Assembly: GCF_013315695.1 (NCBI RefSeq)
Contig: NZ_CP054353.1
Strand: one strand, 5' to 3'
Origin: Escherichia coli
GTDB taxonomy: Bacteria; Pseudomonadota; Gammaproteobacteria; Enterobacterales; Enterobacteriaceae
DNA: 64,000 nt
Position 1 is the stretch's first letter. The number at the start of each line of letters is the position of its first letter. Positions 31,011 through 33,612 of the stretch are shown piece by piece. The position numbers were made by a program, and so were the translations under genes. The notes under the pieces were generated by a model. It ran no database searches and was not told the DNA's origin. It saw only the letters and a list, made by a program, of their open reading frames with translations.

Positions 31011-31096
31011 GAACGAAAAAGGCCGCAGAGTTTCACCCCTGCGGCCTGGTCCGGGCGCAAATTGCCATTACGGCAGCCTGACGCCCGCATGACACG

Positions 31097-31204
31097 TTAC
31101 TTCCGCTTATTCAGCGAGTTCACGATCAGACTGGCAAGAATGCCAGCAATGACCGGAGCCGCTAAATCATGCCAGAAGGCCATGCCCAGTTCTGCGAGCG
31201 TCAT
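31097..31204 (-). CDS. ldr: Ldr type I toxin peptide, copy 1 (35 aa, variant …IVNSLNKRK)
   Basis: MTLAELGMAFWHDLAAPVIAGILASLIVNSLNKRK. Confidence 0.8.
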   Translation of the reverse strand: MTLAELGMAFWHDLAAPVIAGILASLIVNSLNKRK

Positions 31205-31252
31205 ATAGCCGCCTCTGTTGTAATGACAACGTTTCGCGGCTATTCTTGAGTT

Positions 31253-31319
31253 GTTAAGGTTCAAGATTAGCCCCCGTGATGTTGTCAGGTGCATACCTGC
31301 AACGTGCGGGGGTTTTCTC
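31253..31319 (+). ncRNA. rdl: Rdl-type antisense RNA, copy 1 (predicted)
   Basis: Sigma70-like promoter TTGTAA-17-TATTCT (31218-31246), then about 66 nt ending in hairpin GCCCCCG…CGGGGG plus UUUUCUCU; antisense to the ldr leader. Confidence 0.5.
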
Positions 31320-31580
31320 TCTCCAGCAACCAATGCCACCAGGGATTAAGCCCCCCGCAACATTGCGCCTCACCGGAACCCTTCCGGCTTGCCACTGATT
31401 CTACGACTGTTTTTCTGTTCCGGAATCCGTCACGTCTTCACTCTGTGCTGCGCATTCCGCAGAATATTATCCGCTTGCAACCGTTGCATTTTTCTTACGA
31501 AAAAGGCCGCAGAGTTTTATCCCTGCGGCCTGATCCGGGCGCAAATTGCCATTACGGCAGCCTGACGCCCGTCTGACACG

Positions 31581-31688
31581 TTACTTCCGCTTGTTCAGCC
31601 AGTTCACGATCAGACTGGCAAGAATGCCAGCAATGACCGGAGCCGCTAAATCATGCCAGAAGGCCATGCCCAGTTCTGCGAGCGTCAT
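31581..31688 (-). CDS. ldr: Ldr type I toxin peptide, copy 2
   Basis: MTLAELGMAFWHDLAAPVIAGILASLIVNWLNKRK. Confidence 0.8.
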   Translation of the reverse strand: MTLAELGMAFWHDLAAPVIAGILASLIVNWLNKRK

Positions 31689-31736
31689 ATAGCCGCCTCT
31701 GTTGTAATGACAACGTTTCGCGGCTATTCTTGAGTT

Positions 31737-31803
31737 GTTTGGGTTCAAGATTAGCCCCCGTGATGTTGTCAGGTGCATACCTGCAACGTGCGGGGGTTTT
31801 CTC
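31737..31803 (+). ncRNA. rdl: Rdl-type antisense RNA, copy 2 (predicted)
   Basis: Same element one repeat period downstream. Confidence 0.5.
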
Positions 31804-32063
31804 TCTCCAGCAACCAATGCCACCAGGGATAAAGCCCCCGCAACATTGCGCCTCACCGGAATCCTTCCGGCTTGCCGCTGATTCTACGACTGTTTTTCTG
31901 TTCCGGAATCCATCACTTCTTCACTCTGTGCTGCGCATTCCGCAGAATATTATCCGCTTGCAACCGTTGCATTTTTCTTACGAAAAAGGCCGCAGAGTTT
32001 TATCCCTGCGGCCTGATCCGGGCGCAAATTGCCATTACGGCAGCCTGACGCCCGCATGACATG

Positions 32064-32171
32064 TTACTTCCGCTTGTTCAGCCAGTTCACGATCATACTG
32101 GCAAGAATGCCAGCAATGACCGGAGCCGCTAAATCATGCCAGAAGGCCATGCCCAGCTCTGCGAGCGTCAT
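32064..32171 (-). CDS. ldr: Ldr type I toxin peptide, copy 3
   Basis: MTLAELGMAFWHDLAAPVIAGILASMIVNWLNKRK. Confidence 0.8.
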   Translation of the reverse strand: MTLAELGMAFWHDLAAPVIAGILASMIVNWLNKRK

Positions 32172-32219
32172 ATAGCCGCCTGTGTTGTAATGACAACGTT
32201 TCGCGGCTATTATTGAGTT

Positions 32220-32286
32220 GTTTGGGTTCAAGATTAGCCCCCGTGATGTTGTCAGGTGCATACCTGCAACGTGCGGGGGTTTTCTC
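32220..32286 (+). ncRNA. rdl: Rdl-type antisense RNA, copy 3 (predicted)
   Basis: Same element by repeat periodicity. Confidence 0.5.
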
Positions 32287-32546
32287 TCTCCAGCAACCAA
32301 TGCCACCAGGGATAAAGCCCCCGCAACATTGCGCCTCACCGGAACCCTTCCGGCTTGCCGCTGATTCTACGACTGTTTTTCTGTTCCGGAATCCATCACT
32401 TCTTCACTCTGTGCTGCGCATTCAGCAGAATATTATCCGCTTGCAACCGTTGCATTTTTCTTACGAAAAAGGCCGCAGAGTTTTATCCCTGCGGCCTGGT
32501 CCGGGCGCAAATTGCCATTACCGCAGCCTGACGCCCGTCTGACACG

Positions 32547-32654
32547 TTACTTCCGCTTGTTCAGCCAGTTCACGATCATGCTGGCAAGAATGCCAGCAAT
32601 GACCGGAGCCGCTAAATCATGCCAGAAGGCCATGCCCAGCTCTGCGAGCGTCAT
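32547..32654 (-). CDS. ldr: Ldr type I toxin peptide, copy 4
   Basis: Identical to copy 3. Confidence 0.8.
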   Translation of the reverse strand: MTLAELGMAFWHDLAAPVIAGILASMIVNWLNKRK

Positions 32655-32702
32655 ATAGCCGCCTGTGTTGTAATGACAACGTTTCGCGGCTATTATTGAG
32701 TT

Positions 32703-32769
32703 GTTTGGGTTCAAGATTAGCCCCCGTGATGTTGTCAGGTGCATACCTGCAACGTGCGGGGGTTTTCTC
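32703..32769 (+). ncRNA. rdl: Rdl-type antisense RNA, copy 4 (predicted)
   Basis: Same element by repeat periodicity. Confidence 0.5.
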
Positions 32770-33029
32770 TCTCCAGCAACCAATGCCACCAGGGATAAAG
32801 CCCCCGCAACATTGCGCCTCACCGGAACCCTTCCGGCTTGCCGCTGATTCTACGACTGTTTTTCTGTTCCGGAATCCATCACTTCTTCACTCTGTGCTGC
32901 GCATTCAGCAGAATATTATCCGCTTGCAACCGTTGCATTTTTCTTACGAAAAAGGCCGCAGAGTTTTATCCCTGCGGCCTGGTCCGGGCGCAAATTGCCA
33001 TTACCGCAGCCTGACGCCCGTCTGACACG

Positions 33030-33137
33030 TTACTTCCGCTTGTTCAGCCAGTTCACGATCATGCTGGCAAGAATGCCAGCAATGACCGGAGCCGCTAAAT
33101 CATGCCAGAAGGCCATGCCCAGTTCTGCGAGCGTCAT
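33030..33137 (-). CDS. ldr: Ldr type I toxin peptide, copy 5
   Basis: Identical peptide to copy 3. Confidence 0.8.
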   Translation of the reverse strand: MTLAELGMAFWHDLAAPVIAGILASMIVNWLNKRK

Positions 33138-33185
33138 ATAGCCGCCTGTGTTGTAATGACAACGTTTCGCGGCTATTCTTGAGTG

Positions 33186-33252
33186 GTCTAGGTTCAAGAT
33201 TAGCCCCCGTGATGTTGTCAGGTGCATACCTGCAACGTGCGGGGGTTTTCTC
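33186..33252 (+). ncRNA. rdl: Rdl-type antisense RNA, copy 5 (predicted)
   Basis: Same element by repeat periodicity. Confidence 0.5.
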
Positions 33253-33612
33253 TCTCCAGCAACCAATGCCACCAGGGATTAAGCCCCCGCAACATTGCGC
33301 CTCACCGGAACCTTTCCGGCTTGCCGCTGATTCTACGATTGCTTTTTACCGTCAGCACCCGGCAATCTTCCTCATTGCGTGATGCATTCCAGCTTAATTT
33401 CTTTATTTGCAATAGTTGCAGTTCATATCCGGGCTGACTCCAGACTGGTAGTGAAATGCGCAATTTTGTAGAATTGCGCCTCCTCGCGACCTCCCCAGTG
33501 AATCTGTTGCCTCATTTTTTACATACTGCGTATTCGACTTCTCCACCTGTTGCGCAAGAGAAACTGGGTTTATTCATTTTTGCGAGGCCGACTTCTTTCT
33601 GGACAGGACTTT

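What the first reader, a model, noticed from the sequence alone, without database searches (positions are those of the whole stretch)
31011..33430. Five-copy tandem expansion of the ldr/rdl type I toxin-antitoxin unit between bcsG and yhjV
The sequence shows five head-to-tail units of about 483-484 bp. Each carries a 35-codon ldr ORF on the minus strand, a plus-strand promoter plus 66-nt hairpin-terminated RNA consistent with an Rdl antisense, and a GGCCGCAG…CTGCGGCC terminator hairpin. In E. coli K-12 this locus is described as holding a single ldrD/rdlD unit, with a three-unit ldrABC array at a different locus. Units 3 and 4 are identical over their ORF translations, which suggests recent unequal crossing-over. 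A five-fold toxin-gene dosage that needs matching antisense control is an unusual copy-number state.
Basis: partly seen in the sequence, partly recalled or inferred. Interest (0 to 1): 0.6.

Follow-up and report, generated by a model that had tools for sequence, protein, structure and literature searches.

The report
Five-copy ldrD/rdlD toxin-antitoxin array
The five head-to-tail ldr/rdl toxin-antitoxin units between bcsG and yhjV are real and intact. They are the rare high end of a common copy-number polymorphism (1 to 5 units) already annotated in many complete E. coli genomes, so the finding is ordinary.

Summary
Window 31013-33429 holds five tandem units of 483-484 bp.

Each unit carries:
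- an intact 35-codon ldr ORF on the minus strand (Pfam Ldr_toxin, E 1e-26; 34/35 identical to K-12 LdrD);
- a full-length Rfam rdlD match on the plus strand (88-90 bits, threshold 50), with a TTGTAA-17-TATTCT or TATTAT promoter-like site;
- a minus-strand terminator hairpin.

K-12 has one such unit at this locus.

The state is not new. At least 25 of 5,426 complete RefSeq E. coli genomes, including SMS-3-5, carry five annotated Ldr genes at this locus. Two rank-spread samples give about 42% of genomes with one unit, 9% with two, 30% with three and 17% with four.

The five units match those of SMS-3-5 position by position (1-4 differences per 395 bp for units 1, 2, 4 and 5). The array is therefore an old shared allele, not a fresh expansion.

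Recombination is still visible. A sister genome with four copies has a unit 3/4 hybrid. The window differs from its nearest relative by only 12 bases in 10.5 kb, all inside unit 4. This points to gene conversion from unit 3, or to a repeat-polishing artefact.

Verdict: a known type I toxin-antitoxin family in a known and annotated arrangement. Interest is low.

The parts
31013..33429 (.). Whole tandem array of five LDR-D-type units between the bcsG stop (31010) and the yhjV start (33613).
   Evidence: TRF gives period 483 and 4.8 copies at 97%. The repeat finder gives spacings of 484/483/483/483. Alignment A1 to the K-12 ldrD intergenic region.
31013..31496 (-). Unit 1 (484 bp). The ldr ORF is at 31097-31204 and encodes MTLAELGMAFWHDLAAPVIAGILASLIVNSLNKRK, the W29S variant (WP_000170736.1). 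rdl is at 31253-31318 (+). The ldr terminator is at 31020-31047 (-). The rdl promoter-like site is at 31218-31246 (+).
   Evidence: The same protein accession sits at array position 1 in SMS-3-5 and AF14.
31497..31979 (-). Unit 2 (483 bp). The ldr ORF is at 31581-31688 (...ASLIVNWLNKRK, WP_000170738.1). rdl is at 31737-31802 (+). The terminator is at 31504-31531 (-). The rdl promoter-like site TTGTAA-17-TATTCT is at 31702-31730 (+).
31980..32462 (-). Unit 3 (483 bp). The ldr ORF is at 32064-32171 (...ASMIVNWLNKRK, WP_001295224.1). rdl is at 32220-32285 (+). The terminator is at 31987-32014 (-). The rdl promoter-like site TTGTAA-17-TATTAT is at 32185-32213 (+).
32463..32945 (-). Unit 4 (483 bp). 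The ldr ORF is at 32547-32654. rdl is at 32703-32768 (+). The terminator is at 32470-32497 (-). The rdl promoter-like site TTGTAA-17-TATTAT is at 32668-32696 (+). The stretch 32581-32945 is identical to 32098-32462 of unit 3.
   Evidence: All 12 differences from isolate AF3 across 10.5 kb fall at 32695-32930.
32946..33429 (-). Unit 5, next to yhjV. The ldr ORF is at 33030-33137. rdl is at 33186-33251 (+). The terminator is at 32953-32980 (-). The rdl promoter-like site is at 33151-33179 (+). The region upstream of ldr (about 33340-33429) is of the K-12 LDR-D type and differs from the inter-unit junctions of units 1-4.
29331..31010 (+). bcsG, the left flank.
   Evidence: ORF list; RefSeq annotation of the identical sequence in NZ_OZ547117.1.
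33613..34884 (+). yhjV, the right flank.
   Evidence: ORF list; RefSeq annotation.

Best explanation
This is the chromosomal ldrD/rdlD type I toxin-antitoxin locus of E. coli in its five-unit allele.

How each unit works:
- Each 483-bp unit is a self-contained module.
- A minus-strand mRNA with a long 5' leader encodes a 35-residue membrane-active peptide of the LdrD type and ends at a strong intrinsic terminator. That terminator insulates it from the next unit.
- A 66-nt plus-strand antisense RNA (Rdl) is transcribed from its own sigma-70-like promoter. It is complementary to the leader 49-114 nt upstream of the ldr start codon.
- By analogy with K-12 ldrD/rdlD, Rdl pairing blocks toxin translation, probably through a leader reading frame, and the duplex is cut by RNase III. 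This step is inferred, not shown here.
- Every unit carries both genes, and the five Rdl RNAs are identical from nucleotide 7 onward. Antitoxin dose therefore scales with toxin dose, and cross-repression between units is expected (inferred).

How the array came about:
- It arose by duplication through homologous recombination and is an old allele shared between lineages.
- Its copy number and unit sequences continue to change by unequal crossing-over and gene conversion. This produces the 1-to-5-copy polymorphism seen across E. coli.
For: Shown here:
- Five units with intact ORFs, rdl genes and terminators.
- Pfam Ldr_toxin at E 1e-26 over 35/35 positions. The peptide is 34/35 identical to LdrD of PDB 5LBJ.
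- Rdl folds into the Rfam stem-loop at -31.7 kcal/mol, z about -5.
- The rdl promoter-like sites and the position of rdl relative to ldr match the K-12 rdlD annotation.
- Alignment A1 to K-12 LDR-D: the K-12 unit looks like the left end of unit 1 joined to the right end of unit 5.

Population data:
- RefSeq annotates 'Ldr family (x5)' at this locus in many genomes. I counted 25 five-copy genomes among the top 60 hits.
- Spans in two spread samples indicate 1, 2, 3 and 4 copies in about 42, 9, 30 and 17% of genomes. Copy numbers were checked against annotation.

Age and dynamics:
- Positional orthology with SMS-3-5.
- Unit 3 of AF14 is the left part of unit 3 joined to the right part of unit 4. 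Unit 4 of the window is the left part of unit 4 joined to the right part of unit 3.

From the literature:
- LdrD overproduction is toxic and RdlD counteracts it. A leader ORF (ldrX) model by analogy with hok/sok has been proposed but is unconfirmed (PMC4147584).
- ldrD-rdlD forms RNase III-cleaved dsRNA (PMC7373196).
- Ldr loci evolved by lineage-specific duplication; Shigella sonnei Ss046 has 10 (PMC2887945).
Against: - No expression or toxicity data exist for these five units.
- I could not map the ldr promoter. The consensus scan found no sigma-70 match on the minus strand.
- The roughly 85 bp upstream of the conserved leader in units 1-4 are only about 55% identical to the K-12 / unit 5 version. 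It is therefore not shown that units 1-4 transcribe ldr.
- Unit 1 lacks the Trp that forms part of the Fst/Ldr signature, so its peptide may be weaker.
- The physiological role of chromosomal Ldr loci is unknown; deletions have no reported phenotype (PMC7472228).
Confidence: 0.9

Rival explanations
1. Fresh expansion: the five copies arose recently in this strain's lineage by unequal crossing-over from a K-12-like single unit or a short array.
For: - Units 3 and 4 share a 365-bp identical stretch, and units 4 and 5 share their first 177 bp.
- A sister genome, AF14, has four copies with a unit 3/4 hybrid, so one-unit gains and losses do occur on short timescales.
Against: - Units differ from each other by 6-18 positions per 395 bp, yet match the same-position units of SMS-3-5 with 1-4 differences. 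The flanks of that genome are only 98.7% identical to the window.
- The ordered set of peptide variants (736, 738..., 224) is shared with SMS-3-5 and AF14.
- The inter-unit junction has diverged to about 55% identity from the terminal promoter region, which implies an old duplication.
Confidence: 0.07
2. Assembly artefact: the copy number, or the sequence of individual units, is wrong because a 2.4-kb repeat was mis-assembled or mis-polished.
For: - Across 10.5 kb the window differs from isolate AF3 only inside unit 4, by 12 clustered bases.
- MSB1_4I scores the same as AF3 against the window, and MS 21-1 nearly the same.
- The window's version makes unit 4 look like unit 3. Mis-mapped short-read polishing of repeats would produce exactly that.
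Against: - Five copies with the same spacing occur in at least 25 independent complete assemblies.
- Every unit carries private SNPs that allow unambiguous placement.
- At most this explains the 236-bp patch in unit 4, not the array.
Confidence: 0.03
3. Decaying relics: the units are non-functional remnants of duplicated DNA, with only one unit or none still active.
For: - Unit 1 carries W29S in the signature position.
- The regions upstream of ldr in units 1-4 differ from the characterised K-12 one.
- No phenotype is known for Ldr deletions (PMC7472228).
Against: - All five ORFs are intact, with only 2 non-synonymous and 3 synonymous differences among them.
- All five rdl genes score at full length, and their promoter-like sites and terminators are preserved.
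- The W29S variant itself is conserved across lineages.
- The Trp is not essential in Fst of pAD1 (PMC7472228).
Confidence: 0.1

Closest known systems
E. coli K-12 LDR-D (ldrD/rdlD, b4453/b4454) at bcsG-yhjV
   Same: - Same locus and same orientation.
- Same terminator, ORF (34/35 residues), leader, rdl promoter-like site and Rdl stem-loop.
   Different: - K-12 has one unit; the window has five.
- The K-12 Rdl differs at three positions: in the 5' tail (GTCTAGAG vs GTCTAGGT in unit 5) and in the stem (GTGGTG vs GTGATG).
- Units 1-4 have a different sequence upstream of the conserved leader.
Five-copy Ldr array of E. coli SMS-3-5 (NC_010498.1, 3924517-3926559) and 24 other complete RefSeq genomes
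   Same: - Same locus and same number of units.
- Units 1, 2, 4 and 5 are near-identical position by position.
- Annotated by RefSeq as five 'type I toxin-antitoxin system toxin Ldr family protein' genes.
   Different: - Unit 3 of SMS-3-5 encodes the 738 peptide rather than the 224 peptide, and differs at 15 of 395 positions.
- The spacings are 484/484/484/483.
- The window's unit 4 is partly converted to unit 3 sequence.
E. coli K-12 LDR-A/B/C array (ldrABC/rdlABC) at kdsA-chaA
   Same: - A tandem array of the same family.
- The leader, rdl region and terminator are conserved.
   Different: - Different locus and a 535-bp period.
- The peptides belong to the LdrA/B group (57% identity to LdrD according to PMC8309996).
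- The inter-unit sequence is different.
hok/sok (with the mok leader ORF), and other tandemly repeated type I systems (ibs/sib, zorO/orzO)
   Same: - A small membrane toxin is repressed by a cis-encoded antisense RNA that targets the leader rather than the toxin start codon.
- Tandem duplication within a single intergenic region is typical (PMC2887945, PMC4147584).
   Different: - Unrelated peptide and RNA families.
- The leader-ORF coupling is proven for hok/mok but only proposed for ldr.

Membership tests
Ldr/Rdl (LDR) type I toxin-antitoxin | A hydrophobic peptide of about 35 residues belonging to the Ldr toxin family. | tested here: met
   Pfam PF13940 Ldr_toxin, E 1e-26, positions 1-35 of 35. 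34/35 identity to LdrD of PDB 5LBJ. Five intact ORFs.
Ldr/Rdl (LDR) type I toxin-antitoxin | A cis-encoded antisense RNA of about 60-66 nt of the Rdl family with its terminator stem-loop. | tested here: met
   Five Rfam RF01813 matches, 88.3-90.4 bits against a gathering score of 50, model positions 1-66 of 66. Fold of -31.7 kcal/mol, z about -5.
Ldr/Rdl (LDR) type I toxin-antitoxin | The antisense RNA lies opposite the 5' leader of the toxin mRNA, not opposite the ORF or its ribosome-binding site. | tested here: met
   In every unit rdl covers -49 to -114 relative to the ldr ATG (coordinates). This is the arrangement described in PMC4147584 and PMC8594479.
Ldr/Rdl (LDR) type I toxin-antitoxin | The Fst/Ldr superfamily signature: a PXXXG motif in the helix, a conserved Trp after the helix and a charged C-terminus. 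| tested here: met
   PVIAG and the NKRK tail are present in all five peptides. The Trp is present in units 2-5, while unit 1 has Ser. The signature is as described in PMC2887945 and PMC7472228, which also note that the Trp is not essential in Fst of pAD1.
Ldr/Rdl (LDR) type I toxin-antitoxin | The toxin mRNA has its own promoter and intrinsic terminator within each repeat unit. | tested here: inconclusive
   Terminators were found in all five units. No consensus sigma-70 promoter was found on the minus strand. The upstream regions of units 1-4 differ from K-12.
Ldr/Rdl (LDR) type I toxin-antitoxin | The peptide is toxic when overproduced, and the cognate Rdl RNA relieves the toxicity. | not testable with these tools
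   Known for K-12 LdrD/RdlD only (PMC4147584, PMC8309996).
Known five-copy bcsG-yhjV allele (SMS-3-5 type) | Five units at the same locus with position-by-position correspondence. | tested here: met
   Differences per 395 bp against the same-position SMS-3-5 unit are 1 (unit 1), 4 (unit 2), 15 (unit 3), 9 (unit 4; only 1 in the sister genome AF3) and 4 (unit 5). Annotation.

The most novel reading that the evidence does not exclude
The most novel reading not excluded is that copy number at the ldrD locus is a selected, rapidly switching dosage trait. In this view, 1-5 units are generated by unequal crossing-over and conversion, and they tune a stress, persistence or phage-related phenotype. 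The conserved W29S first unit and the stronger TATTAT -10 box of rdl in units 3 and 4 would then be functional specialisations within the array rather than neutral drift.
Probability: 0.06. Interest if true: 0.45.

Novelty: already known. Interest (0 to 1): 0.12.

Why it matters
It matters little for discovery. The family, its tandem habit and this exact five-copy allele are already in the literature and in RefSeq annotation.

The useful by-products are modest:
- K-12's single ldrD unit is not representative. Most complete E. coli genomes carry two to four units at this locus.
- The array shows positional orthology across lineages together with ongoing one-unit deletion and gene conversion. 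That makes it a convenient natural example of repeat dynamics.
- It is also a known trap for short-read assembly and polishing.

Anyone studying Ldr dosage, or deleting 'ldrD' in non-K-12 strains, needs to take the extra copies into account.

Tried and rejected
- NCBIfam scan of the three distinct peptides: no family matched. Membership therefore rests on Pfam, the PDB match and Rfam.
- Consensus promoter scan: it found only the rdl promoters of units 3 and 4 (TATTAT) and nothing for ldr. By eye I found a shared TTGCAA-17-GAATGC arrangement and other candidates upstream of the leader. None was convincing, so I left the ldr promoter unassigned.
- Primary papers on LDR (Kawano 2002, PMID 12123448; Kawano 2012, DOI 10.4161/rna.22757, plus two guessed PMC ids): not held. 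The supplements of Fozo 2010 are not held either. I could therefore cite neither the mapped ldrD transcription start nor a published per-strain table for this locus.
- Search for the gene names ldrE/ldrF/rdlE: nothing relevant.
- Leader ORF (ldrX): two conserved candidates exist in all units and in K-12. One is an in-frame ATG at -90, inside the Rdl target. The other is a 25-codon ORF at -158 to -80, whose ATG start is frame-shifted in unit 1 by an extra C. I could not tell which one the literature calls ldrX.
- A scan of other species for the inter-unit junction (genome contigs): I judged it not worth the shared compute, because the verdict does not depend on it.
- An exact census of copy number in all 5,426 genomes is not possible with 60-row listings. 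The frequencies come from two rank-spread samples. These are not random samples, and RefSeq is biased towards clinical lineages.
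Full report

Yes. Tandem Repeats Finder reports a single array at 31013-33347 with period 483, 4.8 copies, 97% matches and no indels. The gap-free repeat finder gives five copies spaced 484, 483, 483 and 483 bp, 95-97% identical to the first.

On the minus strand there are five intact 35-codon ORFs, at 31097-31204, 31581-31688, 32064-32171, 32547-32654 and 33030-33137. 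On the plus strand Rfam's rdlD model (RF01813) matches five times over its full 66 positions, at 88.3-90.4 bits against a gathering score of 50.

The terminator scan finds ten sites against 2.9 +/- 1.5 in shuffles. Five are the strong minus-strand hairpins AGGCCGCAGGG..CTCTGCGGCCT followed by TTTTT. Five are the rdl terminators.

The flanking ORFs are bcsG (29331-31010) and yhjV (33613-34884). K-12 MG1655 has one ldrD/rdlD unit at this position and the ldrABC/rdlABC array at kdsA-chaA.

**2. What is each unit?**

The most common peptide in the array (units 3-5) matches Pfam Ldr_toxin at E 1e-26 over all 35 positions. It is 34/35 identical to LdrD of PDB entry 5LBJ. NCBIfam has no matching model.

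There are three peptide variants:
- Unit 1 ends ...ASLIVNSLNKRK.
- Unit 2 ends ...ASLIVNWLNKRK.
- Units 3, 4 and 5 end ...ASMIVNWLNKRK.

Each rdl gene is preceded by TTGTAA, a 17-nt spacer and then TATTCT (units 1, 2, 5 and K-12) or TATTAT (units 3 and 4). The RNA start sits where K-12 rdlD is annotated. The five Rdl RNAs differ only at nucleotides 3-6 and fold into the same stem-loop (-31.7 kcal/mol, z about -5).

Rdl is complementary to the ldr leader from -49 to -114 relative to the start codon. It does not overlap the ORF. This is the arrangement described for the family (PMC4147584, PMC8594479).

The GGCCGCAG hairpin has its T-run on the minus strand, so it terminates the ldr mRNA and insulates each unit from the next.

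I could not assign the ldr promoter. No consensus match exists on the minus strand. The roughly 85 bp upstream of the conserved leader differ between the inter-unit junctions of units 1-4 and the unit 5 / K-12 version, at about 55% identity. The paper that mapped the K-12 transcript is not held.

**3. How it most likely works**

This part is taken from the literature on K-12, not shown here.
- LdrD overproduction is toxic, and RdlD counteracts it.
- A hok/mok-like mechanism through a leader ORF (ldrX) has been proposed but not confirmed (PMC4147584, PMC8167048).
- The ldrD-rdlD duplex is an abundant RNase III substrate (PMC7373196).

Candidate leader ORFs are conserved in all five units and in K-12.

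Every unit carries both genes, and the Rdl RNAs are interchangeable over 60 of 66 nt. Antitoxin supply therefore scales with toxin gene number. The 'five-fold dosage needing matching control' is not a special problem (inference).

**4. Is five copies unusual?**

Only mildly. Searching 5,426 complete RefSeq E. coli genomes with the whole region shows that RefSeq already annotates 'type I toxin-antitoxin system toxin Ldr family protein (x5)' between bcsG and yhjV in many genomes.

In the top 60 hits, 25 genomes have a five-unit span. They include SMS-3-5 (NC_010498.1) and three genomes whose flanks are 99.7-100% identical to the window.

I inferred copy number from the distance between the flanks in two rank-spread samples of 59 chromosomes each.

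| Sample | 1 copy | 2 copies | 3 copies | 4 copies | 5 copies |
|---|---|---|---|---|---|
| | 26 | 6 | 17 | 9 | 1 |
| | 24 | 5 | 18 | 11 | 1 |

The spans were checked against annotation for several records. Roughly 42% of genomes have one unit, 9% two, 30% three and 17% four. About 0.5% or more have five. I saw none with six.

These samples are ordered by similarity, not random, and RefSeq is biased, so the percentages are approximate. The literature already describes tandem Ldr arrays and lineage-specific duplications, with 10 Ldr genes in Shigella sonnei Ss046 (PMC2887945).

**5. Old allele or fresh expansion?**

I compared the 395-bp conserved core of every unit from eight genomes:
- the window;
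- its closest relative AF3 (five copies);
- AF14 (four copies, with the same BcsG, YhjV, DppF and DppD proteins);
- SMS-3-5 (five copies);
- a three-copy genome;
- a two-copy genome;
- a four-copy genome carrying an IS200C insertion next to the array;
- K-12 (single copy).

Units correspond by position, not by genome:
- Window unit 1 differs from SMS-3-5 unit 1 at 1 site.
- Unit 2 differs at 4 sites.
- Unit 5 differs at 4 sites.
- AF3 unit 4 differs from SMS-3-5 unit 4 at 1 site.
- Neighbouring units within one genome differ at 6-18 sites.

The order of peptide variants is also shared. The five-unit array therefore predates the split of these lineages, whose flanks are 98.7% identical.

Recent events are nevertheless visible:
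- AF14 unit 3 has unit 3 variants up to column 117 and unit 4 variants from column 232 onward. That is the footprint of one unequal crossover that removed a unit.
- The window's unit 4 is the reverse hybrid, with unit 4 variants on the left and unit 3 variants on the right.

Across 10.5 kb the window is identical to AF3 except for 12 bases. All 12 lie at 32695-32930, inside unit 4. This is either a gene-conversion tract or repeat homogenisation by read polishing. MSB1_4I scores the same as AF3 against the window, and MS 21-1 nearly the same. That makes the window the odd one out. Only raw reads can decide.

**6. Comparison with what is known, and verdict**

All testable defining features of the Ldr/Rdl family are met (see the membership table). 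The ldr promoter is inconclusive, and toxicity cannot be tested here.

The nearest known objects are K-12 LDR-D (same locus, one unit) and the annotated five-copy arrays of SMS-3-5 and others (same allele).

The finding is a correct reading of the sequence, but it describes an already known and annotated polymorphism.

Interest is low. The only reading that would raise it is that copy number or the unit variants are functionally selected. I have no evidence for that.

Noticed in passing
window ~27050-27818: An IS1A element replaces about 638 bp of the K-12 sequence between bcsR (yhjR) and bcsE. This removes the N-termini of both genes, so bcsE starts as a 439-codon remnant at 27827. The same insertion is annotated in isolate AF3, where bcsR and bcsE are marked as pseudogenes. 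The cellulose operon region is probably inactivated in this lineage.
   Followed up: partly
window 31097-31204 (unit 1 ldr ORF): The first unit encodes LdrD with Ser instead of the signature Trp at residue 29 (WP_000170736.1). The same variant sits at array position 1 in SMS-3-5 and AF14, so it is a conserved allele and not a sequencing error. Its toxicity is unknown.
   Followed up: partly
window 32208-32213 and 32691-32696: The rdl -10 box is TATTAT in units 3 and 4, but TATTCT in units 1, 2, 5 and in K-12. TATTAT is closer to consensus, so these units may make more antitoxin RNA.
   Followed up: no
window 32695-32930 (unit 4): All 12 differences from the otherwise identical 10.5 kb of isolate AF3 cluster here and make unit 4 identical to unit 3 over 365 bp. 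This is either gene conversion or a repeat-polishing artefact.
   Followed up: yes
window 54764-54919 (-) and 52609-53036 (+): A second type I antitoxin match (Rfam sok, 80.6 bits) lies about 1.7 kb from the cspA thermoregulator. I presume this is the hokA/sokA locus next to cspA, as in K-12; I did not examine it.
   Followed up: no
L005 5440-7066 (NZ_CP142915.1); also hits H86 and H181: Some E. coli genomes carry a hipA-like type II toxin-antitoxin cassette of about 1.85 kb inserted between yhjV and dppF, right next to the Ldr array. It is absent from the window.
   Followed up: no
L004 3115-3573 (NZ_CP013025.1); hits H33, H118, H158: Insertion sequences recur around this locus in other genomes: IS200C between bcsG and the array, IS5 or IS4 inside bcsG, and IS1 in yhjV. 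They change the bcsG-yhjV span and have to be subtracted when inferring copy number.
   Followed up: partly
window 41167-41417: An Rfam naRNA4 (REP-derived nucleoid-associated RNA) match lies on the plus strand next to a tRNA gene on the minus strand. I did not examine them.
   Followed up: no
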